A DNA stretch of 64,000 nt from NCBI GenBank assembly GCA_037927135.1, contig JAXSPP010000002.1, forward strand, positions 1 to 64,000. The letters are read 5' to 3'. The position numbers were made by a program, and so were the translations under genes. The notes beneath the pieces are model-generated. The model was not told where the DNA came from. It saw only the letters and a list, made by a program, of their open reading frames with translations, and did no database searches. Source of the stretch: Candidatus Pampinifervens sinense. GTDB lineage: Bacteria > Aquificota > Aquificia > Aquificales > Aquificaceae. How positions within the stretch are numbered: position 1 is the first letter of the stretch; every line of letters begins with the position of its first letter. Of the stretch, positions 46,649-56,700 are shown piece by piece.

Positions 46649-48330
46649 ACTGTTAAAGCTTAGCATAGGAGCCAAACTCTCTCTTTCCTTCATGTTTGTA
46701 ATCCTTCTTACCTCCCTACCCATATCTACCCTTATGCTACTATGGCTTGAAAGGACCTTAAAAGAACACATTGAAGACACCATAAGGAAGGAGATCTTAT
46801 CAAGGGAAAACGATGTAAGGAATGCCCTGCTAAACGGTGACTATTGGACCATCTTTAAACAGGTGGAGTCTCTCTCAAGGCTAAAAGGTATAAAAGATGT
46901 GGCAGTTGTAGACAGCTCGGGCTTTGTCTTGGCCCACTCAAACCCCATGGAATACCCTATAGGTACCTACTTACCGAATTACGAAAGGCTGGAAAAGATA
47001 CCCATAGACAGCTACAACTATACGTTGGCCTACGTGGTCTTCCGTATAGATAAGGAGGCCATAGAAGCCTCCCTTATTCCTCTAAAAATAATCTCCGCAG
47101 GCCTAACTTTCTCCTTGCTCTTTATCGGCATTTTAATGGGCCTTATAGTATCCCTGAGGATTTCAACAAGGTTAAGGAAGGTCCTTAATATGGTAGATAG
47201 CTTTGAGAAGGGCAGGCTTGAAAAGGTTGAGTTTTTAGAGAAGGATGAAATAAGCACCTTTGGTGAATACATGTACAAAAGCCTTTCAAGGATCAACACT
47301 ATGATAAAAAACTCTATCTTTGAAAGGGACTTCTATCAAAGCCTTGTAAACAGCCTTCAGGACATTTTACTGATACTTGACAGGGATGGGAGGATATACT
47401 ATGCCAATAGTATGATTGAAAAGCTAGGCTATACATACGAGAGATTACTCGGTAGGTCTGTGCTTGTGCTTATAAAGGATAGCAAGGATAGAAGAAGGAT
47501 AAAGTCTAAGTTAAGGTCAGGGGAGGCTTTTATAGAAAAGGTAAAGATAAGGGCAAGCTCGGGCGACCTTTACGCCATAATGAGCTTTGTGCCTACCGAA
47601 GAGGCCATCATAGTCTCCATTAAAGGATGTGACAGAGCTCGTAAAGATGGAGGAGAACTTAAAGAGGATGGAGGTATTCTACATGCTTGGAGAGCTTAGC
47701 GCTGGTTTGGCCCATGAGTTGAAAAACGCCCTACTTCCCATAAAGCTACTATCTGATGTTCAAGATTGGGATGAGGAAGACATAAGGGTTGTAAGGTCTG
47801 CCATAAACAGGATAAACAACGTAGTTAGCACCATGCTGGAGTTTGCCAACCTAAACAGCCATCCGGAGGAGAGGGTTTCTTCAGAAGAGATTATAAACTC
47901 GTGGCTGAGCCTTTATGAGCCTTTGATAAGGAGGAAAGGGATAAAGGTAAGCACCCATGTGGATGATTTTAGCTTTAAGATAAACAAGCAAGCTTTCCAG
48001 ATAATCTTTAGCAACCTTTTCAAAAATGCCTTGGAGGCTGTGCCGGAAAATGAAGGGGAGGTGGAGGTACACTTAAAAAAGATAAACGGTAAGGTAGTCT
48101 TAATAGTAAAGGATAATGGCCCTGGTATACCCGCCAAGTACAGAGATAAGATATTTGAACCCTTCTTTACCACCAAGGGAAATAGTGGTACAGGTCTTGG
48201 CCTCTCCCTGGTTTTAAAATATACCTATGAAATCGGTGGATACTTGCATATGGAGACAAAGGAAGGAGGTGGTACAAAATTTGTCCTTGAGGTGCCATTA
48301 AAGGATGGAGAAGAGGATTTTGATAATTGA
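46629..48330 (+). pseudogene. sensor histidine kinase (TM-HAMP-PAS-HisKA-HATPase), frameshifted near 47622-47624
   Basis: Two TM helices, PAS, LAHELKN, NLFKNALEA, DNGPGI, FEPFFTTK, GTGLGL; removing one A at ATTAAAGGAT restores IKDVTE; may be a sequencing error. Confidence 0.8.
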
Positions 48331-49636
48331 TGACGATCCTGCGGTGCTATATGCTATAAAGAGGGTGCTTACTCAGAGGGGCTTTATCGTTTACACCTTA
48401 GAGTCTCCCGACAGAATGGAGGAGTACATAGATAAATGCCACCTTCTTGTGGTGGACATAAGGCTTATGAACAGGTCTGGGATTGAGGTGGTTATGGATT
48501 TGAGGAGCAGGGGTATAAACATACCCGTCATATTCATAACAGCTTATACAGACTTTGATAACATAGTTCAGGCTTCAAAGCTTGGTGCAGTGGACATACT
48601 TAAAAAGCCCTTTGATATAGAAGACCTTCTGAGGGCTATCAACGTTGCTTTAGATAGGGATAAGGGGAGGATAGTAGACCACTACGAAGAGGAGCATAAG
48701 GTAGTTGGCGCATCTAAGGCCATGTTTGAGGTCTTTAAAAAAGTTGGAATAGCAAGCACTAACGACCTGAACGTGCTTATAACTGGTGAGACGGGCGTGG
48801 GTAAGGATCTGGTGGCAAGGCTTATACACGCCAATTCAAACCGCAAAAATGGCCCCTTTGTGGTGGTTAACTGCCCTTCCGTGCCATGGGACCTTTTTGA
48901 GGTGGAGCTCTTTGGCTATGTTAAAGGTGCCTTTACAGGGGCAACCACTGACAGGAAGGGCAAGGCGGAGCTTGCCAACGGTGGAACCCTTTTCCTGAAC
49001 GAGATTGGAGACCTCCCCTATAAACTTCAAGCAAAGCTCCTAAGCTTTATAGAAAGAAAGGCCTTTTACCCAGTTGGTGGAACGAAAGAGATAACCGTTG
49101 ACGTGAGGTTCATCTTTGCTACCAACAGAAACCTAAAAGAGCTCATAGCAGAAGGTAAGTTTAGAGAGGATCTCTATCATAGGATGAACCAGATGGAGAT
49201 ACACATACCACCATTAAGGGAGAGGAAGGAGGACATAGAGCCCCTCATAAACCACTTTATAGCCATGGTAAACAGAGAACTTGGACTGAAGATAACTGGA
49301 ATATCAAAAAAGGCCCTTGAATTAGCCCTTAAACATCCTTGGTATGGCAATGTGAGAGAGCTAAAGAATGTCATATATAAAGCGGCTATAGATACAAAGG
49401 CAGGTGTAATAGAGAGCCTACCCTTAAAGGAGGAGAGGGCTAAGGGCTTTTCCCTTGAGGAGATGCTTGACCTATATATATCCTCTAAAAAGGAATCAGA
49501 ATTGGCCAACGCCCTTGAAGAGCTTGAAACAACCTTTATAAGGAGGCTACTTGAAAGGTACGGAGGAAACAAAAGCAAGGTGGCACAGCTCCTTGGCATA
49601 TCAAGGAATACCCTCAACGCTAAGCTAAAGGAGTAG
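48305..49636 (+). CDS. sigma54-dependent response regulator with Walker B D-to-N change
   Basis: Receiver IIDDD/VVD/KP, GETGVGKD, GAFTGA, LFLNEI, FREDLY, HTH. Confidence 0.9.
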   Translation: MEKRILIIDDDPAVLYAIKRVLTQRGFIVYTLESPDRMEEYIDKCHLLVVDIRLMNRSGIEVVMDLRSRGINIPVIFITAYTDFDNIVQASKLGAVDILKKPFDIEDLLRAINVALDRDKGRIVDHYEEEHKVVGASKAMFEVFKKVGIASTNDLNVLITGETGVGKDLVARLIHANSNRKNGPFVVVNCPSVPWDLFEVELFGYVKGAFTGATTDRKGKAELANGGTLFLNEIGDLPYKLQAKLLSFIERKAFYPVGGTKEITVDVRFIFATNRNLKELIAEGKFREDLYHRMNQMEIHIPPLRERKEDIEPLINHFIAMVNRELGLKITGISKKALELALKHPWYGNVRELKNVIYKAAIDTKAGVIESLPLKEERAKGFSLEEMLDLYISSKKESELANALEELETTFIRRLLERYGGNKSKVAQLLGISRNTLNAKLKE

Positions 49637-50969
49637 CCTTACCCTTCAAAAGCTTCCTAAGGGTTATCCTGTTTATGCCTAAAACCTTGGCCGTTTTAGA
49701 CTGGTTTTTACCAAGGATTGAATAGGCCTCCTCCACTATGGCATAGCCTACACTTTCTAAAAGCTTACGGTATATGCCCCTCTCACCAGCCTCTATAAGC
49801 CTTCTTACCTCCATCCTTACAACCCTGTCAATGTCCTGTGGCTCATACTCTTCCACCACAAGCTCCAAATCCTTACCTCTTAAAACATCGCCATCACTTA
49901 AGGCTATGGCCCTTCTTAGCATATTCTCCATCTCCCTCACATTACCGGGCCAGCTGTAGCTAAGCACCTTATCCAAAAAGTCCCTTGTATAACCCCTTAT
50001 CCTCTTTCCCATCTCGACGGATAAGTTCCCTATTATGCAGTTGAGCAAAAGGGGTATGTCTTCCTTTCTTTCTCTTAGAGGGGGTATATGTATATGCACC
50101 ACGCTTATCCTGTAGTAAAGGTCCTCCCTAAAGAGCCCCTCCTTTACCAAACTCTTTATATCTTTATTGGTGGCGCAGATAAGCCTAAAGTCGCAGGGAA
50201 CCTCCTTTGTGCTTCCAAGCCTCCTTAGCTTCTTCTCCTGCAAGACTCTTAAAAGCTTCGGCTGTAAGGCCAAGGGTAGGTCCCCCACCTCATCCAAAAA
50301 TAGCACACCACCCTTCGCCATCTCTATAAGGCCAGCCTTAGAGGTAGAAGCACCTGTAAAGGCTCCCCTTTCGTATCCAAAGAGCTCAGCCTCAAACAAC
50401 TCCGGTGGCACTGCAGAGCAGTTTATGGCCAAAAAGGGTCCATTCCACCTTTTTGAAAGCTTCCAAAGGGCCTTTGCAAAAAGCTCCTTTCCCACACCAG
50501 TCTCACCCGTTATTAAAACTGGCACATCCAAGGGTGCTACCTTCCCAATGGTCTTTAAAACCTCCTTCATCCTTCCCTCAGGGTTCCCTATTATGGAACA
50601 TAGCTCCTTACATAGGTCTCCAGAGAGGTTCTCTTCGCTGTAAACTATAGGTATTACTTCTTCCCTGTGGTAGAGCTCATTTTTAGCCTTTTCAATCACC
50701 TCCCTTAACTCCTTAGGATTTATGGGCTTTAGAAGCACATCATAAAAGCCAAGGCTCATAAGCTTCATGGTGTATCCTGGTAAGGTCCTTCCCGTTATGG
50801 CTATAACCAAGTTCCCATCCTCTTTAAGGTCTGGCAGTGGTGAAAGCCCAACTGTGTCCACATCCAAGATAACTATGGAGTTCCTTAGATCCTCTGGGAG
50901 TTCATCAACAGCTTTTAGGCCTTCCACCCTTAAGCCCCTGTCCTTTGTATACATGATAATAGATTCCAT
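49620..50969 (-). CDS. sigma54 enhancer-binding protein with degenerate receiver domain
   Basis: GETGVGKE, GAFTGA, LFLDEV, FREDLYYR, WPGNVRE, HTH; receiver lacks the N-terminal acidic pair. Confidence 0.9.
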   Translation of the reverse strand: MESIIMYTKDRGLRVEGLKAVDELPEDLRNSIVILDVDTVGLSPLPDLKEDGNLVIAITGRTLPGYTMKLMSLGFYDVLLKPINPKELREVIEKAKNELYHREEVIPIVYSEENLSGDLCKELCSIIGNPEGRMKEVLKTIGKVAPLDVPVLITGETGVGKELFAKALWKLSKRWNGPFLAINCSAVPPELFEAELFGYERGAFTGASTSKAGLIEMAKGGVLFLDEVGDLPLALQPKLLRVLQEKKLRRLGSTKEVPCDFRLICATNKDIKSLVKEGLFREDLYYRISVVHIHIPPLRERKEDIPLLLNCIIGNLSVEMGKRIRGYTRDFLDKVLSYSWPGNVREMENMLRRAIALSDGDVLRGKDLELVVEEYEPQDIDRVVRMEVRRLIEAGERGIYRKLLESVGYAIVEEAYSILGKNQSKTAKVLGINRITLRKLLKGKATPLA

Positions 50970-51005
50970 GTTTATTAATTATACAAGCTGTTTACAAAAT
51001 ATACA
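50969..51005. promoter_or_regulatory. tandem enhancer-like sites TGTTTA-N5-TATACA
   Basis: TGTTTATTAATTATACA (50969-50985) and TGTTTACAAAATATACA (50989-51005), 20 bp apart. Confidence 0.7.
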
Positions 51006-51057
51006 TGAGCTATATCAGGTAGGCTTGAAAGGTCATTATCTTTTTGAGGCTTCCCCC

Positions 51058-51073
51058 TGGCATGCACTTTGCA
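51058..51073 (+). promoter_or_regulatory. sigma54 (-24/-12) promoter
   Basis: TGGCATGCACTTTGCA: GG-N10-GC matching TGGCAC-N5-TTGCA; AGGAGG SD follows at 51085. Confidence 0.85.
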
Positions 51074-51098
51074 TTGAGTTAGATAGGAGGTGGATAAT

Positions 51099-53738
51099 AT
51101 GAAGCTTTGGGAAGAGGTTATAGAGAAGAATCCAAGGGAAAGGCTTAAGGCAGAAAAGCACCCCCTTGATATAATTTGGGATCTTCCAAGGCTTATAAAG
51201 GAGGGCTATGAAAGGGTCCCAGAAGAGGACCTTGTACGCCTCCAATGGTACGGCCTCTATCACGATAAACCACGCATAGGCTACTTTATGCTGAGGGTTA
51301 AACTGCCTGGTGGAAGGGTAAGGCCGGACCAGCTGAGAATAATTGGGGAGCTTGCCAAAAGCTTTAATGATTATGCAGAGCTCACCACAAGGCAGGATAT
51401 TCAAATGCATGGAATAAGGCTTGATGACCTGCCCTGGGTCTTTGAAAGGCTTTCCAGCGTTGGACTTTTGCCCATAGGGGCCTGTGGTGATACAGTGAGG
51501 AACATAACTAGCTGTCCCGTTTCAGGCGTAGATAAATATGAGCTTTTTGACGTTGAAAGGTGCATAAAAGATCTTGAGAGCTTCTTCCACAATCCAGAAA
51601 ACAAGGAATACTTTAACCTGCCTAGGAAGTTTAAGATAACCCTTTCAAGCTGTCCTTACCATTGCAACTGTCCAGAGATGCATGACCTTGCCTTTGTGGG
51701 CATGGTAAAAGATGGTGTTGAGGGCTTTGCAGTTTGGGTAGGCGGTGGGCTTTCTTCAACGCCAAGGCTTGCAAGAAAGCTAGGCCTATTCATACCAAAG
51801 GAAAAAGTCCTAGAAGTAGCCAAGGCTGTGGTGGACATATGGAGCGAAGATCCAGAAAACAGAAGGTCCTTTGTAAGGGCAAGGATAAAGTACTTCATAG
51901 ACAAGGTTGGGATAGAAGGCTTTAGGGAATTGCTTCTTAAAAGGTTGAGCTTTAGCCCAGATCTTATCAAGGAAGAGCCTGTGGCCATAGGTAGGAACTT
52001 CCATGTGGGAATAGGAGAGCAGAAGGAGGAAGGCCTTTTCTATGTGGGCTTTCCTGTGGAGGCAGGTAGGGTATCCGGCAGCCAGCTTATAAAGGTGGCA
52101 GATCTTGCAGAGGACCTAAACCTCTCCATAAGGGTCTCTCAGAGGCAGAACCTTATACTGACCCATATACCAAGAGAGGATCTTGACCATGTGCTAAGAA
52201 GGATGGAAGAGATAGGCTTTAGCCTCAAAAAGAGCATATCAAGGGGCATATCCATAGCCTGCACAAGCGACCCCTTCTGCAACTACTCCGTTGGCTCCTC
52301 AAAGGAGTTTCTTTTGGAGCTTTTGGAATATCTTGAGGAGAGGCTTGGAGATTTGGGAGATATTGCCATAGGTGTGGATGGCTGTCCCCATGCCTGCGCC
52401 CACCATTGGCTAAACGACATAGGGCTTCAGGCCACTCACATAAGACATCCCGACGGAAGCGTGGAGAGCGCGGTAAACATAGTGCTAGGAGGTGGCTATG
52501 GAAAGTATGCAAACATAGGTAGGATAGTGGCCAAGAAGGTGCCACTGCCTTTGGCAAAAGAGTACATAGAGAGGCTTATACAGGCATACAAAAGCTCAGG
52601 ACATAAAAGCTTTCAGGAGTTTGTAAGGTCTTATTCTGATGAGGAGCTTTTGAGCATTATGCAAGGTGGAAAGGCGGTGGTGCAAGAGGAGAAGGGGAAG
52701 GTAAAGGTAAGGCTCTTTGGGCCCATAAGCAGGTTTTTCGGTGGGCTTTCTGAGGTTGAGGTGGAAGCTAAGACAGTGAGAGAAGCTCTTCTGAAGCTTG
52801 AGGAGGAGTTTAAAGATTTTCGTGGAAGGGCTATTGATGAAAAGGGGGAGCTGAAGCCTTACATAAAGGTCTTTTTGAAAGAGGAGGACATAAAGTTCTT
52901 GCAAGGCCTTGATACCCCTCTTAAGGAAGGAGACGAGATAGCCATATATCCAGCCCTTGCGGGAGGTGCACCCATGTACGATGAGCTTGAGCTTCATGAG
53001 CTCGCTATTGAGTATGAAGGAAGACCGGCACAAGATGTAATAGCCTGGGCCATGGAGAACTTTCATCCAAAGCTCTACATAGCCTGGAGCGGTCAGGCAG
53101 AGGATATGGTGATCCTTGATATGGCTTGCAGGATAAACCCACAGGTCAGGGTCTTTACCGTTGATACGGGAAGGCTTCATGAGGAGACCTACAGGCTTAT
53201 GGAAAAGGTCTATGAGGTCTACGGCATAAGGATAGAGGTTTACTTCCCAGACAAGGAAGAGGTGGAGGATATGGTAAGGAGGTTTGGCGTAAACCTCTTT
53301 TACAGGTCTGTGGAGCTCAGACACCTCTGCTGTCATATAAGGAAGGTGAGGCCCCTTTTGAGGGCTTTAAATCAGGTGGATGCCTGGATCACAGGTTTGA
53401 GAAGGGAACAATGGGCAAGCAGGCACAACCTTATGAAGATTGAAGTGGACCACGACCACGGACAGATAGTAAAAGTGAATCCCTTGGTAGATTGGACGGA
53501 GAGGGATGTGTGGAAGTACATAAAGGAAAAGGGAGTGCCATATAGCGAGCTCTACGAGAAGGGCTATAGAAGCATAGGATGTGCACCTTGCACCAGGCCT
53601 GTGGCCCCTTATGAGGATCCAAGGGCAGGTAGATGGTGGTGGGAAGTGGGAGCTCCTAAGGAGTGTGGTATGCACTGCAGTCTGGAGACGGGAAGCTTTG
53701 AAAGGATATCGGACAAGATACTGGGGGAAAGGAAATGA
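51099..53738 (+). CDS. fusion: ferredoxin-dependent sulfite/nitrite reductase + MoaD/CysO-like sulfur carrier + APS reductase (CysH)
   Basis: Sir: TTRQDIQ, LPRKFK, siroheme/Fe-S ligands CTSDPFC and GCPHAC. Ubl: VKVRLF...TV.EAL...L.EGDEI.I.PALAGG. CysH: DTG, CCHIRKV.PL, W.TGLRREQ, SIGCAPC, RAGRW, ECGMH. Confidence 0.9.
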   Translation: MKLWEEVIEKNPRERLKAEKHPLDIIWDLPRLIKEGYERVPEEDLVRLQWYGLYHDKPRIGYFMLRVKLPGGRVRPDQLRIIGELAKSFNDYAELTTRQDIQMHGIRLDDLPWVFERLSSVGLLPIGACGDTVRNITSCPVSGVDKYELFDVERCIKDLESFFHNPENKEYFNLPRKFKITLSSCPYHCNCPEMHDLAFVGMVKDGVEGFAVWVGGGLSSTPRLARKLGLFIPKEKVLEVAKAVVDIWSEDPENRRSFVRARIKYFIDKVGIEGFRELLLKRLSFSPDLIKEEPVAIGRNFHVGIGEQKEEGLFYVGFPVEAGRVSGSQLIKVADLAEDLNLSIRVSQRQNLILTHIPREDLDHVLRRMEEIGFSLKKSISRGISIACTSDPFCNYSVGSSKEFLLELLEYLEERLGDLGDIAIGVDGCPHACAHHWLNDIGLQATHIRHPDGSVESAVNIVLGGGYGKYANIGRIVAKKVPLPLAKEYIERLIQAYKSSGHKSFQEFVRSYSDEELLSIMQGGKAVVQEEKGKVKVRLFGPISRFFGGLSEVEVEAKTVREALLKLEEEFKDFRGRAIDEKGELKPYIKVFLKEEDIKFLQGLDTPLKEGDEIAIYPALAGGAPMYDELELHELAIEYEGRPAQDVIAWAMENFHPKLYIAWSGQAEDMVILDMACRINPQVRVFTVDTGRLHEETYRLMEKVYEVYGIRIEVYFPDKEEVEDMVRRFGVNLFYRSVELRHLCCHIRKVRPLLRALNQVDAWITGLRREQWASRHNLMKIEVDHDHGQIVKVNPLVDWTERDVWKYIKEKGVPYSELYEKGYRSIGCAPCTRPVAPYEDPRAGRWWWEVGAPKECGMHCSLETGSFERISDKILGERK

Positions 53739-54022
53739 TAAGCTTGAAGGAGATCAAAGACAGGAAGGCCTTTGAAGAGGGGCTAAGGAAAAGGGGTTGG
53801 AAGGAGGGAAGGTTTAACGGAGGGGTATGTATGATGAAGGAACTGGAAGGCTGGCTATGGATATGCTTGGTCTTTGACCATGAGGCCAAGTTTGCCTCCT
53901 TTGCCCTTGAGGAAAGTTCAAAGATGCATTCGGAAGGTGTAAAGAGGCTTTTGGAGGAAATAAAGAACCTATCAGAGGAGTTTGACTTTGCCATGTTTGG
54001 GAGGTTAGAGTATGGTGGCTGA
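53735..54022 (+). CDS. hypothetical 95-aa protein in the sulfate assimilation operon
   Basis: ATGA overlap with the upstream gene and overlap with the downstream gene. Confidence 0.7.
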   Translation: MISLKEIKDRKAFEEGLRKRGWKEGRFNGGVCMMKELEGWLWICLVFDHEAKFASFALEESSKMHSEGVKRLLEEIKNLSEEFDFAMFGRLEYGG

Positions 54023-54773
54023 CTTTTTGGGACTTCTTCTCTTTGGCTTCTTTATAGCCTTTGCCATAGGATTAACTGGTGTAGGTGCTGGAACTCTTAC
54101 TGCGCCTCTTCTCATCTTGCTTGGCTTAGATCCTGCAAAAGCAGTTGGTTCTGCCCTTGCCTTCTCTACAGTGGTGAAGTTTCCAGCGGTGTTTACTCAT
54201 GCAGTTTACAAAAATTTGGATTATAAAACCCTTCTTCTTATGCTTGTGGGAGGAGTTCCTGGTACACTCTTGGGTTCTCTTCTTCTCAAACTGTTTCATG
54301 ACCCCTTAGGATTAAAGAAGCTTCTTCTTTTAGTCATAGGTATCACCATAATATTTTCTGTCCTTTTAAATCTACTTATGATTTGGAAAGGTAAGAGGTT
54401 TGACTTAAGCAGGTATAAATACCTTTTACCTGCATGTTGCTTCTTAATAGGCCTTGAAGTTGGTTTTACATCTGCTGGTGCTGGAGCTTTAGGTATGGTA
54501 TTGCTCTTATACTTTACAAAACTGAGTCCTGCAAGAGCGGTTGGTGTGGATATAGCCTTTGGTTTAGCCTGCTCCTTTGTAGGTGGTACCTCACACTTTT
54601 TACAAGGTCATACAGACACGGGAGTATTTCTTCCCATGTCCTTAGGTGGTCTCGCTGGAGTGTTGCTTGGGACTCATTTAGCAAGGACCTTAAATCCCAG
54701 GCCTCTAAGAATAGTTATATCACTGTTGCTTGTTGCAGTTGCCATAAACCTTATACAAAAGGGTTTGAGATGA
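54012..54773 (+). CDS. TauE/SafE (TSUP) family sulfur-compound transporter
   Basis: GLTGVGAG.L..P, AVG..L, GFTS.GAG repeat; multiple TM helices. Confidence 0.88.
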   Translation: MVADFLGLLLFGFFIAFAIGLTGVGAGTLTAPLLILLGLDPAKAVGSALAFSTVVKFPAVFTHAVYKNLDYKTLLLMLVGGVPGTLLGSLLLKLFHDPLGLKKLLLLVIGITIIFSVLLNLLMIWKGKRFDLSRYKYLLPACCFLIGLEVGFTSAGAGALGMVLLLYFTKLSPARAVGVDIAFGLACSFVGGTSHFLQGHTDTGVFLPMSLGGLAGVLLGTHLARTLNPRPLRIVISLLLVAVAINLIQKGLR

Positions 54774-55519
54774 TGGGTAAAGTGTACATAGTAGGTGCAG
54801 GACCAGGAGATGTGGAACTTTTAACCCTAAAGGCGTACAAAATCATAAAATCTGCAGATGCCATACTTTATGACAGACTCATAAACCAAGAGATACTGTT
54901 CCTTGCAAAGCCTAACTGCGAACTTCTGTATGTAGGCAAAGAGGACGGAAAGCACACCATAGAGCAAGAAAAGATAAACGAGCTTTTGCTCAGATACGCC
55001 CACACAAAGGATACAGTGGTTAGACTAAAAGGAGGAGACCCCTTTGTCTTTGGAAGAGGAGGGGAAGAAGCCCTCTTTTTAGCACAGCATGGTGTAGAGG
55101 TGGAGGTAGTGCCCGGAGTTAGCTCTGCCATAGCGGTACCATCCTACGCAGGCATACCCTTGACCTTCAGAGGCATATCCTCTTCCTTTGCAGTCATCAC
55201 AGGACACGAAGACCCAAGAAAAGAACACTCAGACATAGATTGGGGAAGTTTGAAAGGCATAAACACCCTTGTCTTTCTGATGGCGGTAAAAAACAGGCAG
55301 GAGATAGCCAAAAGGCTTATAGAGGTAGGGAGGGACCCAAAGGAGCCTGTGGCCTTTATAGAGAATGGGACCACAGAGAAGCAGAAGGTTATACTTACAG
55401 ACCTTTATGAGCTTTCCACAAACCCGCCTGAGGTAAGCCCTCCTGCCATCATGGTGGTGGGACATGTGGTAAGACTGAGGGAAAAATTAGCATTAAAGGA
55501 GGTTGAGGCATGCTTATAG
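54770..55519 (+). CDS. cobA: uroporphyrinogen-III C-methyltransferase (siroheme synthesis)
   Basis: VGAGPGD.ELLTLKA, YDRL, VRLKGGDPFVFGRGGEE, VPGVSS, GIPLT.R. Confidence 0.93.
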   Translation: MMGKVYIVGAGPGDVELLTLKAYKIIKSADAILYDRLINQEILFLAKPNCELLYVGKEDGKHTIEQEKINELLLRYAHTKDTVVRLKGGDPFVFGRGGEEALFLAQHGVEVEVVPGVSSAIAVPSYAGIPLTFRGISSSFAVITGHEDPRKEHSDIDWGSLKGINTLVFLMAVKNRQEIAKRLIEVGRDPKEPVAFIENGTTEKQKVILTDLYELSTNPPEVSPPAIMVVGHVVRLREKLALKEVEACL

Positions 55520-56700
55520 CACCCCATGGAGGAGAGCTTGTAAACAGGGTTGTGCCAGAGAGGGAAAGGGTAAAGATACTGACTGAGGCCGAGAGGTACC
55601 CGTCCCTCCATGTGGATAGGGATACACTCCTTGACGTTGAGAACATTGCCACAGGCGTCTTTTCGCCCCTCAAGGGCTTCATGACAAAAGAAGAGCTTGA
55701 GGGTGTGGTCTATCATATGCTCCTTCCAAGCGGTCATGTCTGGACCATACCCATACTTCTACAGGTGGAAGAAGAGGTGGCAAGGTCCCTTGGACCTGGA
55801 GAGAGAGTGGCCCTAAGGGACGATGAAGGCAGGCTAAAGGCCCTGCTTGATGTTAAGGACATATATCCCATAGAGTTGGAAAAAGTTGCCAGGCTTGTAT
55901 GGGGTACGGACATCAACGAACACCCAGGCGTGAAGACCTTTTACTCAAAGGGAAGATGGGCCATAGGCGGTGATATTTGGCTTTTGGAAAGGGTAAACCA
56001 CCCCCTTAGGGATTGGGTACTGGACCCTGAGGAGACAAGGAAGGTCTTTGAATATAGGGGTTGGAAGAGGGTGGTGGGATTTCAAACTAGGAACGCACCC
56101 CATAGGGCCCATGAGTACCTTCAGAGGATAGCCCTTGAAATAGCAGATGGCCTTTTTATAAACCCTGTCTTGGGCTGGAAGAAGTCTGACGACTTTGACT
56201 CCTACACCGTTTTAAGGGCTTATGAGTACCTTATAGATAACTACTATCCTTCCAAAAGAGTCCTTCTCTCTGGACTTGCCACGGCCATGAGGTATGCGGG
56301 CCCGAGGGAGGCGGTCTTTCATGCTATAGTAAGAAAGAACTTTGGATGCACCCATTTTATAGTGGGCAGGGACCATGCGGGCGTTGGAAACTTTTATGGT
56401 CCTTACGATGCACACAGGATCTTTGATAGGCTTCCAAAGGACATAGGCATAGAGATAATAAGGGTTACTGCTGTCTTTTACTGTAGCCTGTGTGGTTGTA
56501 TGGCATCGGACAAGAGCTGTGGGCATGAGGAAGTCTACAGAACCTATGTTAGCATGACAAAAATAAGGGAGATGTTGAGGAAGGGCCTTGTTCCACCAAA
56601 GGAGATGATAAGGGAGGATATAGCTAAGCTCCTATTCGACCTTGAGTTCACCCATAAGAAAGGCTTTATGGTCTCTGAGAAAGGCCCTGAGGAAAGATAG
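55510..56700 (+). CDS. sat: sulfate adenylyltransferase
   Basis: PHGG.L, SPL.GFM, FQTRNAPHRAHEY, MRYAGPREA..HA..RKNFGCTHFIVGRDHAGVG. Confidence 0.96.
   Translation: MLIAPHGGELVNRVVPERERVKILTEAERYPSLHVDRDTLLDVENIATGVFSPLKGFMTKEELEGVVYHMLLPSGHVWTIPILLQVEEEVARSLGPGERVALRDDEGRLKALLDVKDIYPIELEKVARLVWGTDINEHPGVKTFYSKGRWAIGGDIWLLERVNHPLRDWVLDPEETRKVFEYRGWKRVVGFQTRNAPHRAHEYLQRIALEIADGLFINPVLGWKKSDDFDSYTVLRAYEYLIDNYYPSKRVLLSGLATAMRYAGPREAVFHAIVRKNFGCTHFIVGRDHAGVGNFYGPYDAHRIFDRLPKDIGIEIIRVTAVFYCSLCGCMASDKSCGHEEVYRTYVSMTKIREMLRKGLVPPKEMIREDIAKLLFDLEFTHKKGFMVSEKGPEER

What the first reader, a model, noticed from the sequence alone, without database searches (positions are those of the whole stretch)
51099..53738. 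Sulfite reductase - ubiquitin-like sulfur carrier - APS reductase in one polypeptide
Seen: one uninterrupted frame encodes a siroheme sulfite reductase (CTSDPFC, GCPHAC), a roughly 90-aa MoaD/CysO-like beta-grasp domain (about 52701-52967, ending PALAGG), and an Fe-S APS reductase (CC...CxxC, ECGMH). Known: these carriers need a free C-terminal Gly-Gly to form a thiocarboxylate. In the Wolinella HcyS system a JAMM protease trims GG-Ala and the carrier accepts sulfide from sulfite reductase. Here the GG is internal and also followed by Ala. Inference: either a polyprotein cleaved at GG|A to give a sulfite reductase carrying its own sulfur carrier plus free CysH, or an APS-to-sulfide channelling enzyme. 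With sat, cobA and a TauE transporter downstream, the operon covers sulfate to sulfide without APS kinase. No E1/MoeB, JAMM or cysteine synthase gene lies in this window.
Basis: partly seen in the sequence, partly recalled or inferred. Interest (0 to 1): 0.85.

Follow-up and report, generated by a model that had tools for sequence, protein, structure and literature searches.

The report
Sulfite reductase–sulfur carrier–APS reductase fusion
A hot-spring bacterium makes two enzymes of sulfate assimilation as one chain with a small ubiquitin-like sulfur carrier between them, and comparison with relatives suggests the chain is cut after the carrier's Gly-Gly to make it work.

Summary
Window 51099-53738 (+) is one 879-aa frame: a NirA-type siroheme sulfite reductase (residues 1-525), a CysO/SAMP1-type ThiS domain (535-623, ending PALAGG) and an Fe-S APS reductase (624-879).

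The fusion is real. It is full length at 14 loci in 13 of 178 genomes of the phylum. A distant second clade carries it too.

In sister genera the same gene stops 2-5 residues after GG, and cysH follows as an overlapping gene. In 43 of 58 two-domain SiR-ThiS clusters from other phyla the protein ends exactly at GG. So GG is the carrier's working end, and the window's form is a read-through of that junction.

The genome holds one intact JAMM protease, one MoeB/UbaA-type E1, a CysM, and a free paralogue of the carrier (51% identical, ending GG-HI). It lacks APS kinase, CysE and MetY-type enzymes.

Best reading (0.55): a polyprotein cut after Gly623, giving sulfite reductase with a tethered sulfur carrier plus free APS reductase. 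Cleavage was not shown. An uncut channelling enzyme remains possible.

SiR-ThiS fusions were described by comparative genomics in 2006, and JAMM-cut MoaD-MoaE fusions are known. This is a new variant, not a new kind.

The parts
51058..51073 (+). sigma-54 type -24/-12 promoter-like site TGGCATGCACTTTGCA, 25 nt upstream of the start codon
   Evidence: This is the only 1-mismatch match to TGGCAC-N5-TTGCW in the 64-kb window. The other 49 matches have 2 mismatches. Sequence read. The consensus is recalled, not from a call.
51099..53738 (+). Single ORF of 879 aa: SiR-ThiS-CysH fusion (stop codon 53736-53738)
51099..52673 (+). NirA/SirA-type siroheme-[4Fe-4S] sulfite reductase module (residues 1-525), with Cys motifs CTSDPFC (388-394) and GCPHAC (428-433)
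   Evidence: Pfam NIR_SIR and NIR_SIR_ferr. Best solved relative is 1zj8, M. tuberculosis NirA, 214 bits over residues 11-514. Motif positions.
52674..52700 (+). Flexible linker between SiR and the carrier domain (residues 526-534)
   Evidence: AF2 pLDDT is below 50 for residues 526-532.
52701..52967 (+). CysO/SAMP1-type ThiS-family beta-grasp sulfur-carrier domain (residues 535-623), ending PALAGG
   Evidence: Pfam ThiS 40 bits. NCBIfam SAMP1 57.6 bits, cut-off 60. Solved relatives are 4n6e_B, 2m19, 1v8c and 3dwg_C, the last being the chain bound to 'Cysteine synthase B' in 3dwg. 51% identical to the free carrier of the same genome.
52962..52967 (+). Gly622-Gly623 codons GGA GGT. This is the proposed cleavage point (after G623). 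The same bases form a Shine-Dalgarno-like GGAGGT.
   Evidence: G622 and G623 are invariant in alignment A1 and in all 12 fused and 50 two-domain rows examined. Nucleotides read.
52974..52976 (+). In-frame ATG (Met626), 6 nt after GGAGGT. It is the relic of the separate cysH start codon and a possible internal start.
   Evidence: Kept in 7 of the 13 fused loci read (L016-L022) and absent in 6 (L023-L028). In split relatives the cysH ATG lies at the same place and overlaps the stop codon.
52968..53735 (+). Fe-S APS reductase (CysH) module (residues 624-879), with CC 744-745, CAPC 828-831 and ECGMH 855-859
   Evidence: PAPS_reduct. TIGR02055 APS_reductase 266.2 bits, cut-off 235.3. 2goy APS reductase 211 bits over residues 624-861.
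53735..54022 (+). Conserved small ORF (95 aa) of unknown family between cysH and tauE
   Evidence: No Pfam or NCBIfam family. Present at the same place in all 7 loci aligned, with 18 invariant columns. The Atlas gave no usable lead.
54012..54773 (+). TauE/SafE-family membrane transporter
   Evidence: PF01925, E 1.1e-40
54770..55519 (+). Uroporphyrinogen-III C-methyltransferase (CobA; first step of siroheme synthesis)
   Evidence: TIGR01469, 303.6 bits, cut-off 185
55510..56700 (+). ATP sulfurylase (Sat), without an APS kinase domain
   Evidence: NF003166, 494.7 bits, cut-off 387. PUA_2 and ATP-sulfurylase domains.
49620..50969 (-). Divergently transcribed NtrC-type sigma-54 activator-like gene (449 aa). 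A second one lies at 48305-49636 (+).
   Evidence: Translations read GETGVGKE and GAFTGA. Assignment is by reading only; no family search was run on them.

Best explanation
The gene encodes a precursor polyprotein of assimilatory sulfate reduction.

How it arose (inferred). The ancestral arrangement is still seen in sister genera. There, a sulfite reductase carries a CysO/SAMP1-type sulfur-carrier domain at its C-terminus, with GG followed by a 2-5-residue cap. An overlapping cysH gene follows, and the Gly-Gly codons GGAGGT serve as its ribosome-binding site. In the window's lineage a frame change at that overlap removed the stop codon. APS reductase thereby became a 256-residue cap on the carrier.

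How it works (inferred).
1. The genome's single JAMM metalloprotease must already uncap the free carrier paralogue, which ends GG-HI. It cuts after Gly623.
2. This yields SiR-ThiS with a free Gly-Gly end, plus a CysH that starts Ala-Pro-Met-Tyr-Asp-Glu. Stand-alone CysH in sister genera starts Met-Arg/Lys-Phe-Asp-Glu at the same position.
3. The single MoeB/UbaA-type E1 adenylates the Gly-Gly end.
4. Sulfide made at the siroheme site of the same polypeptide converts the acyl-adenylate to a thiocarboxylate.
5. CysM, and possibly a ThrC-like homocysteine synthase, uses the thiocarboxylate. Little free sulfide is then released in a microaerophilic sulfur oxidiser.

Upstream, Sat makes APS and CysH reduces it to sulfite without a PAPS step.

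Shown here: the anatomy, the conservation, the split and free-GG relatives, and the presence of the partner genes. Inferred: the cleavage, the adenylation, the thiocarboxylate and its acceptor.
For: Split relatives.
- In 5 loci of sister genera the SiR-ThiS ORF ends ALAGG+AL, +VS, +VCDEV, +VDNEV or +AL. cysH starts at an ATG that overlaps or adjoins the stop codon.
- Of the 178 genomes searched, 13 carry the full fusion. 7 have cysH as a separate gene beside sir: 6 with SiR-ThiS (2 of them cut by contig ends) and G026 with a sir that lacks ThiS.

Two-domain relatives.
- Among the 120 listed relatives of residues 1-626, 58 are two-domain SiR-ThiS proteins.
- 43 of these 58 end exactly at GG, and 15 carry 1-8 extra residues.

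The carrier signature is kept.
- GG is invariant in all 12 fused clusters. Most columns conserved at 80% or more in the two-domain forms are also kept.
- Mean pairwise identity among 10 fused Aquificaceae proteins is 0.70 for the carrier domain, 0.70 for SiR and 0.77 for CysH.

Origins. The fusion arose at least twice. P0012/P0013 nest in a distant clade whose members end at GG. Close relatives of P0012/P0013 have stand-alone CysH.

Partner genes.
- One Prok-JAB gene is found. E25, H85, H87, S95 and D98 are invariant in 21 orthologues.
- One ThiF-family E1 is found.
- CysM scores above the equivalog cut-off, 457.7 against 394.2.
- A free carrier 51% identical to the fused domain ends GG-HI.

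Structure and docking.
- In the AF2 model (mean pLDDT 87.6) residues 620-624 fall below pLDDT 50, and CysH starts with a helix at 629.
- Complex prediction of the JAMM with residues 533-879 gave weak support. The score is 0.52 (runs 0.54, 0.52, 0.45) and the best of 3 controls is 0.00. The runs agree in at least 82% of contacts, and the partner's pLDDT is at least 87. The mark was reached by 58 of 80 solved complexes and 2 of 110 mismatched pairs. At 0.60 or under it was reached by only 7 of those 80 and by both of the mismatches that passed. JAMM-Ubl complexes are solved, so the pass may reflect likeness only.

Precedents. MoaX must be cut between Gly82 and Ser83 to be active (abstract). DRJAMM was reported to cleave the MoaD-MoaE fusion (abstract).
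Against: No call shows the protein cut.
- The one RNA run laid no reads. RNA could not show cleavage anyway.
- The JAMM gene is not linked to the operon. It lies next to asd on contig C5.
- The JAMM family is near-universal in the two main families whether or not the fusion is present: f1 87 of 89 genomes, f2 47 of 50. Its presence is therefore explained by the free carrier, which is found in 82 of 90 genomes of the family.
- The carrier domain is dispensable in some lineages. G026 has an in-frame loss of it, and SiR-only proteins nest inside carrier-bearing clades.
- Only about 5 residues separate GG from the first CysH helix. That may hinder a protease.
- The complex prediction is only weak support.
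- CysM is no closer to the M. tuberculosis CysO-dependent enzyme (3dwg, 199 bits) than to E. coli CysM (2bht, 236 bits).
Confidence: 0.55

Rival explanations
1. Uncut trifunctional enzyme. The chain stays whole. The beta-grasp domain is an inactive relic that only tethers CysH to SiR. Sulfite from the CysH S-sulfocysteine intermediate reaches the siroheme site nearby, and free sulfide goes to CysM or to the free carrier.
For: - 6 of the 13 fused loci read have no internal start codon, so CysH must work either fused or after cleavage.
- CysH tolerates many N- and C-terminal fusion partners (Pfam columns).
- The carrier domain has been lost without loss of the operon (G026; SiR-only rows inside carrier clades).
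- A free carrier exists for cysteine synthesis.
- No cleavage has been shown.
Against: - An inert tether would not be expected to keep GG invariant and the carrier signature intact across 12 clusters and two independent origins. Nor would it be expected to evolve as slowly as the SiR domain.
- No convincing SiR-CysH fusion without the carrier was seen. P0014-P0016 have Arg/Pro-rich stretches that look out of frame, and P0042 lacks the CysH N-terminus.
- The split relatives cap GG with only 2-5 residues, which points to a processed end.
Confidence: 0.27
2. Internal initiation supplies free CysH. In the window's genus, ribosomes also start at Met626 behind the GGAGGT made by the Gly-Gly codons. 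Free CysH then arises without proteolysis, and the full-length chain is a tolerated by-product of a recent frame change. This can coexist with either reading above. It does not by itself free the carrier's Gly-Gly end.
For: The window reads GGA GGT GCA CCC ATG. In split relatives the cysH ATG sits at the same distance from the same GGAGGT. The ATG is kept in 7 of the 13 fused loci read.
Against: 6 of the 13 fused loci have no ATG, GTG or TTG at this position yet keep the fusion. There is no stop codon, so the full-length chain is made in any case. No reads of the RNA run lay on the stretch, so no transcript or ribosome evidence is at hand.
Confidence: 0.15
3. Artefact. The fusion is a sequencing or assembly frameshift that joins two genes.
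For: The split and fused forms differ by a small frame change at an overlapping stop/start junction. An error could mimic this.
Against: - The same open frame occurs at 14 loci in 13 genomes, several of them single-contig assemblies.
- It occurs in 12 protein clusters from several sources.
- Contigs from other samples cover it with no listed insertion or deletion inside the gene.
Confidence: 0.01

Closest known systems
Two-domain sulfite reductase-ThiS fusion (Iyer, Burroughs and Aravind 2006, Genome Biol 7:R60; operon class 4e)
   Same: Both have a NirA-type sulfite reductase with a ThiS/MoaD-like domain at its C-terminus, in a sulfate-assimilation context with PAPS/APS reductase and ATP sulfurylase (passages read). 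58 such clusters were found here, in several phyla.
   Different: The known form ends at or just after GG: 43 of 58 end exactly at GG. Here GG is internal and is followed by a whole APS reductase. The paper reports JAB, E1 and SirA/TusA genes inside those operons. Here they are unlinked. As far as my searches reach, the two-domain form is a comparative-genomics prediction without biochemistry.
MoaX of M. tuberculosis and MoaD-MoaE of Deinococcus radiodurans (linear Ubl-enzyme fusions)
   Same: In both, a ThiS/MoaD-family carrier with Gly-Gly is joined directly to a partner enzyme in one chain. Cleavage after GG is required for activity (MoaX: between Gly82 and Ser83; abstract). A JAMM protease was reported to do the cutting in Deinococcus (abstract; reference list entry seen).
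   Different: Those belong to molybdopterin synthesis and have the carrier at the N-terminus. Here the carrier sits in the middle, between two enzymes of sulfate reduction. It stays attached to the upstream one.
M. tuberculosis CysO-CysM-Mec-MoeZ cysteine pathway
   Same: The fused domain matches 3dwg_C, the chain solved with 'Cysteine synthase B', and other CysO/SAMP1-type carriers. The genome has a CysM, a small JAMM, an E1 and a free carrier, and no CysE. That CysM uses O-phosphoserine and a CysO thiocarboxylate, and that Mec releases cysteine, is recalled knowledge.
   Different: The genes are scattered, not clustered. The E1 lacks a rhodanese domain (271 aa). One carrier copy is fused to the sulfide-producing enzyme. 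The CysM substrate was not tested, and sequence does not place it nearer to the M. tuberculosis enzyme.
Wolinella succinogenes HcyS-HcyD-HcyF-Sir-MetY homocysteine pathway (recalled: Krishnamoorthy and Begley 2011; not found in the library)
   Same: A capped carrier (GG-Ala) is trimmed by a JAMM protease and activated by an E1. It is loaded with sulfide that comes from an operon-encoded sulfite reductase.
   Different: There the carrier is a free protein and the acceptor is MetY. This genome has no Cys_Met_Meta_PP enzyme above the cut-off.

Membership tests
Assimilatory siroheme sulfite reductase, NirA/SirA type | Two NIR_SIR_ferr plus NIR_SIR repeats | tested here: met
   Pfam E 1.8e-34 and 1.1e-53, two stretches each. 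1zj8 NirA scores 214 bits over residues 11-514.
Assimilatory siroheme sulfite reductase, NirA/SirA type | Four Cys ligands of the siroheme-[4Fe-4S] centre (C-x5-C ... C-x3-C) | tested here: met
   CTSDPFC at 388-394 and GCPHAC at 428-433. That these are the ligands is recalled knowledge of the family.
Assimilatory siroheme sulfite reductase, NirA/SirA type | Sulfite rather than nitrite as substrate | tested here: inconclusive
   The best NCBIfam models are nitrite-reductase/NirA equivalogs, and both score below their cut-offs (332 against 594; 309 against 523). Context argues for sulfite: cysH is fused, and sat, cobA and tauE follow. A separate NirB-type nitrite reductase lies on contig C3.
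ThiS/MoaD/CysO sulfur-carrier proteins | Beta-grasp ThiS-family domain | tested here: met
   Pfam ThiS 40 bits against a cut-off of 22.5, over the full profile. SAMP1 57.6 bits, just under its cut-off of 60, and moaD_arch 47.1 bits under 49.5. Block-mean pLDDT is 73-95 across residues 531-620 in the AF2 model.
ThiS/MoaD/CysO sulfur-carrier proteins | Gly-Gly at the end of the domain | tested here: met
   G622 and G623 are invariant in 16 of 16 rows, and in 12 of 12 fused and 50 of 50 two-domain rows.
ThiS/MoaD/CysO sulfur-carrier proteins | Free C-terminal carboxylate on the second Gly | tested here: not met
   In the primary translation product GG is followed by 256 residues. The feature can be met only after proteolysis, which was not testable here.
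ThiS/MoaD/CysO sulfur-carrier proteins | Adenylation by an E1 and formation of a thiocarboxylate | not testable with these tools
   One MoeB/UbaA-type E1 gene is present. The chemistry needs experiment.
Thioredoxin-dependent Fe-S APS reductase (CysH) | PAPS_reduct domain that scores as APS reductase | tested here: met
   TIGR02055, 266.2 bits against a cut-off of 235.3. 2goy scores 211 bits.
Thioredoxin-dependent Fe-S APS reductase (CysH) | CC ... CxxC cluster ligands and the catalytic Cys in ECG(L/M)H | tested here: met
   CC at 744-745, CAPC at 828-831, ECGMH at 855-859. These columns are invariant in alignment A1. The role of the motifs is recalled.
Thioredoxin-dependent Fe-S APS reductase (CysH) | APS, not PAPS, as substrate | tested here: inconclusive
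   No APS kinase was found in the 99.96%-complete genome: 0 matches, while the control rang in 11 of 14 genomes. This fits APS but is indirect.
JAMM-processed linear Ubl-enzyme fusions (MoaX / DrMoaD-MoaE kind) | Carrier Gly-Gly joined directly to an enzyme of the same pathway in one ORF | tested here: met
JAMM-processed linear Ubl-enzyme fusions (MoaX / DrMoaD-MoaE kind) | JAMM protease with an intact E...HxHx7Sx2D motif in the genome | tested here: met
   A 141-aa protein, Prok-JAB 94.3 bits. E25, H85, H87, S95 and D98 are invariant in 21 of 21 sequences.
JAMM-processed linear Ubl-enzyme fusions (MoaX / DrMoaD-MoaE kind) | Cleavage after GG demonstrated and needed for function | not testable with these tools
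   Only indirect evidence: split and free-GG relatives, a low-confidence junction in the model, and a weak complex prediction of 0.52 against a best control of 0.00.

The most novel reading that the evidence does not exclude
A bacterial ubiquitin-like polyprotein in which the Ubl sits between two enzymes of one pathway. A JAMM protease releases APS reductase and at the same stroke arms a sulfur carrier that stays covalently tethered to sulfite reductase. Nascent sulfide is then trapped as a protein thiocarboxylate on the enzyme that makes it, and never becomes free sulfide. That would matter in a sulfide-oxidising, oxygen-exposed thermophile. Cleavage would then be an activation step that couples carrier supply one-to-one to APS reductase synthesis. 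It would resemble the eukaryotic ubiquitin-ribosomal protein fusions.
Probability: 0.4. Interest if true: 0.65.

Novelty: new variant of a known kind. Interest (0 to 1): 0.5.

Why it matters
Protein-thiocarboxylate routes to cysteine and methionine are known from a few model systems. How sulfide reaches the carrier is the least documented step.

A sulfite reductase that carries its own carrier is widespread: 58 clusters in several phyla among the 120 relatives listed here. As far as my five library searches reach, it has not been studied biochemically.

The triple fusion gives a simple, decisive handle. If a roughly 100-kDa precursor is cut after Gly-Gly by the one JAMM protease of a small genome, three things follow:
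- the carrier role of the fused domain is shown;
- JAMM proteases are shown to mature sulfur-carrier precursors outside molybdopterin synthesis;
- a thermostable, self-contained APS-to-thiocarboxylate module becomes available for study.

If it is not cut, it would be a natural case of a Ubl domain turned into a mere linker while keeping its Gly-Gly. That would need its own explanation.

Tried and rejected
Co-occurrence of the JAMM with the fusion. Prok-JAB is found in 155 of 178 genomes (f1 87 of 89, f2 47 of 50) regardless of the fusion. It cannot discriminate and was dropped as evidence.

RNA evidence. The one raw-read metatranscriptome (X24) laid 0 reads, with about 3 in 100 of the run read. 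This is no test of expression, of transcript ends or of an internal start.

CysM type. Comparison with solved structures does not place the genome's CysM nearer to the CysO-dependent M. tuberculosis enzyme than to E. coli CysM. The acceptor therefore stays inferred.

SiR-CysH fusions without a carrier. P0014-P0016 have Arg/Pro-rich stretches that look out of frame, and P0042 lacks the CysH N-terminus. They were judged unreliable and were not used for or against any reading.

The small ORF's C-terminal GG (53735-54022). I first suspected a second carrier. The C-terminus is not conserved in 6 orthologues, so this was rejected.

Atlas search for the small ORF. The best score was 0.82, with no common family. 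No lead.

Earlier notes of this scan. Nothing was found near this place. The look-up by sequence gave only an unrelated hit sharing 3 of 180 words.

Literature. Five searches found no paper on a SiR-ThiS-CysH protein. PMC11237513 treats MoaD-MoaE and MoaD-MoeB fusions only (passages read).

One coordinate slip was corrected.


Full report
OBSERVATION

The window has one open frame from 51090 (GTG) or 51099 (ATG) to 53738 on the + strand. From the ATG it gives 879 residues (P0001). The ATG is the likely start. It follows AGGAGGTG, and orthologues begin MKLWEE.

Pfam finds NIR_SIR_ferr and NIR_SIR twice each. It finds ThiS at residues 537-623 over its whole profile (40 bits, cut-off 22.5), and PAPS_reduct at 659-834.

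NCBIfam places the C-terminal part above the APS-reductase subfamily cut-off (TIGR02055, 266.2 against 235.3). It places the middle part just under the SAMP1 cut-off (57.6 against 60).

The best solved relatives are M. tuberculosis NirA (1zj8, residues 11-514) and APS reductase 2goy (residues 624-861). For the middle domain they are CysO/SAMP1-type carriers whose chains end at GG: 4n6e_B, 2m19 and 3dwg_C.

IS THE FUSION REAL?

Yes.
- Of the 120 listed relatives of residues 480-879, 12 carry all four Pfam families.
- In 178 genomes of the phylum, 14 loci in 13 genomes match residues 1-5 to 877-879 without stops. Some are single-contig genomes. One genome (G050) has two copies, at 95% and 69% identity.
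- Contigs from other samples span 50905-54158 (X5) and 50905-54107 (X8). Their only listed insertions or deletions are at 51056, 54036 and 54042, all outside the gene. An X12 piece bridges 52537-53027 with 2 differences and no gap.
- Only 40 of 319 substitution rows were printed, so that table alone does not exclude a stop codon by substitution. P0002, an 879-aa protein from a 7141-base contig of the same length as the X5 record, shows the frame open.

WHAT THE RELATIVES SAY

Seven genomes of two sister genera have cysH as a separate gene beside sir.

In the five loci where the junction can be read, the SiR-ThiS ORF ends ALAGG followed by AL, VS, VCDEV, VDNEV or AL. cysH begins at an ATG that overlaps or adjoins the stop codon. 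The Gly-Gly codons GGA GGT sit where a ribosome-binding site is expected.

The window reads GCG GGA GGT GCA CCC ATG TAC. This is the same GGAGGT and the same ATG, now in frame, with no stop. The ATG is kept in 7 of the 13 fused loci read and absent in 6.

One relative (G026) has lost the carrier domain in frame. It keeps the short tail ...EVCDEI, and cysH follows.

Beyond the phylum, two-domain SiR-ThiS proteins are common. There are 58 among the 120 listed relatives of residues 1-626. Source names point to Actinomycetota, Armatimonadota, Chloroflexota, Tectimicrobiota and others. Of the 58, 43 end exactly at GG and 15 carry 1-8 further residues. Eleven of those 15 are the Aquificaceae-like split forms.

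A FastTree on the SiR part puts the 10 fused Aquificaceae clusters in one clade (support 96), with one SiR-only row inside. That clade is sister to the capped two-domain clade. P0012/P0013 (47% identical, with a 21-residue insert after GG) fall inside a distant clade whose members end at GG. The fusion therefore arose at least twice, and the carrier was lost several times. The tree is midpoint-rooted and made with FastTree only. I left out the 31 CysH-only rows of A2.

Close relatives of P0012 have stand-alone CysH proteins of 275-294 residues. They start just before the motif VIFDDLEIGEIA.

IS THE CARRIER DOMAIN STILL A CARRIER?

- GG is invariant.
- Most columns conserved at 80% or more in the two-domain forms are kept in the fused forms. 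Examples are G541, G549, G583, G603, G611 and A619, each in 12 of 12 rows.
- Mean pairwise identity among the 10 fused Aquificaceae proteins is 0.70 for the carrier, 0.70 for SiR and 0.77 for CysH.
- A whole-library search with the domain alone gave 3821 hits at E 0.001 or better. The nearest are free proteins of about 90-100 residues.
- Some relatives are joined at their GG end to ThiF, to rhodanese, to an NMT1-like domain, or to a second ThiS (10 proteins scanned). Linear fusions behind GG are thus not rare in this subfamily.

THE REST OF THE GENOME (1.55 Mb, 99.96% complete)

- One ThiF-family gene: MoeB/UbaA-like, 271 aa, no rhodanese domain.
- One Prok-JAB gene: 141 aa, next to asd. E25, H85, H87, S95 and D98 are invariant in 21 orthologues.
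- Four free ThiS-family genes. One is a SAMP1/CysO-like protein ending AIAGGHI that is 51% identical (45 of 89) to the fused domain. Its orthologues are found across the family: 82 of 90 genomes have a match, and in two of these only the fused domain matched.
- A CysM above the equivalog cut-off, and two ThrC-like genes.
- No APS kinase. No CysE (best hit 27.7 bits against a cut-off of 210.65). No Cys_Met_Meta_PP enzyme above the cut-off.
- The other NIR_SIR protein is a NirB-type nitrite reductase.

The core of the family therefore looks like a CysO/CysM/JAMM/E1 route to cysteine, with capped carriers that already need a peptidase. The sulfate operon with its own carrier is an accessory addition.

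STRUCTURE AND DOCKING

AF2 on a 111-row alignment gives mean pLDDT 87.6 and pTM 0.66. Three segments fall below pLDDT 50: 526-532, 620-624 and 877-879. CysH begins with a helix at 629. The junction is thus predicted flexible, but it is short.

The complex of the JAMM with residues 533-879 scored 0.52 (runs 0.54, 0.52, 0.45). The best of 3 controls scored 0.00, and the verdict was weak support. The runs agree in at least 82% of contacts, and the partner's pLDDT is at least 87. The mark was reached by 58 of 80 solved complexes and 2 of 110 mismatched pairs. At 0.60 or under it was reached by only 7 of those 80 and by both mismatches that passed. JAMM-Ubl complexes have been solved, so the pass may only reflect likeness.

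MECHANISM

Best reading (0.55): a precursor polyprotein.
1. The JAMM cuts after Gly623.
2. SiR keeps a tethered carrier with a free Gly-Gly end. CysH is released with an N-terminus equivalent to that of the stand-alone enzyme in sister genera.
3. The E1 adenylates the carrier.
4. Sulfide from the siroheme site makes the thiocarboxylate.
5. CysM, and perhaps a ThrC-like enzyme of the MetM kind, uses it. MetM/MetO are listed as experimentally supported in PMC13759103 (passage read).

All chemical steps are inferred.

Precedents: MoaX must be cut between Gly82 and Ser83 to be active (abstract). DRJAMM was reported to cleave a MoaD-MoaE fusion (abstract). HvJAMM1 and SAMP1-MoaE were seen only in a search listing.

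Rivals:
- An uncut channelling enzyme with a relic domain (0.27).
- Internal initiation at Met626 that supplies free CysH in this genus (0.15; compatible with either of the others).
- An artefact (0.01).

COMPARISON WITH WHAT IS KNOWN

Iyer et al. 2006 already noted ThiS fused to the C-terminus of sulfite reductase in two actinobacteria. They also described an operon class that joins ThiS/MoaD, JAB, E1 and SirA with PAPS reductase, ATP sulfurylase and sulfite reductase (passages read).

The window differs in two ways. APS reductase is fused behind GG, and the JAB and E1 genes are unlinked.

Five library searches found no description of the three-part protein. Supplements could not be read.

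Two earlier notes of this scan describe related fusions in other genomes: ThiS-CysK, and SiR-TusA. I did not test them.

VERDICT

This is a new variant of a known kind, and it is moderately interesting because one simple experiment decides it.

Noticed in passing
window 51058-51073 (+), with 48305-49636 (+) and 49620-50969 (-): The sulfate-assimilation operon is preceded by the only 1-mismatch match to the sigma-54 -24/-12 consensus in the 64-kb window (TGGCATGCACTTTGCA). Two NtrC-type activator-like genes lie next to it, one of them divergent. This suggests sigma-54 control of sulfate assimilation.
   Followed up: partly
window 53735-54022 (+): A 95-aa ORF between cysH and tauE has no Pfam or NCBIfam family. 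It is conserved at the same place in all 7 loci aligned, with 18 invariant columns including G21, W22, W40, W42, H65 and S66. Its C-terminal GG in the window is not conserved.
   Followed up: partly
L035 (G026:C132:1-2535): In one relative the sulfite reductase has lost exactly the carrier domain, in frame. It keeps the short tail ...EVCDEI that follows GG in its neighbours, and cysH follows directly.
   Followed up: partly
G000:C1:76986-78566 (L048): A 67-aa SAMP2/ThiS-like protein ending SGG lies between metF and a 158-aa TusA/DUF2249 + DUF1858 protein. The genome has no Cys_Met_Meta_PP enzyme above the cut-off and two ThrC-like genes. Homocysteine may therefore also be made by a carrier-dependent route.
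   Followed up: partly
P0014, P0015, P0016: The SiR-CysH 'fusions' named from Thermoleophilia-like sources hold long Arg/Pro/Ala-rich stretches in place of the SiR C-terminus and the carrier. They look like out-of-frame translation in high-GC DNA and are probably frameshifted gene calls.
   Followed up: no
P0163, P0199, P0207, P0255, P0272, P0277, P0278, P0140: Close relatives of the carrier domain occur as N-terminal fusions to ThiF, rhodanese(-ThiF) and an NMT1/THI5-like domain, and as tandem ThiS-ThiS. In all of these the Gly-Gly is internal.
   Followed up: partly
G050:C1:1363789-1366425 and G050:C1:164519-167134: One single-contig genome of the same genus carries two copies of the triple fusion, 95% and 69% identical to the window's protein. 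This suggests transfer of the operon within the family.
   Followed up: no
G000:C3:161446-164292 (L047:2447-5293, -): A 948-aa NirB-type protein (Pyr_redox_2 + BFD-like 2Fe-2S + NIR_SIR) lies beside ABC-transporter genes. It is presumably the assimilatory nitrite reductase.
   Followed up: partly
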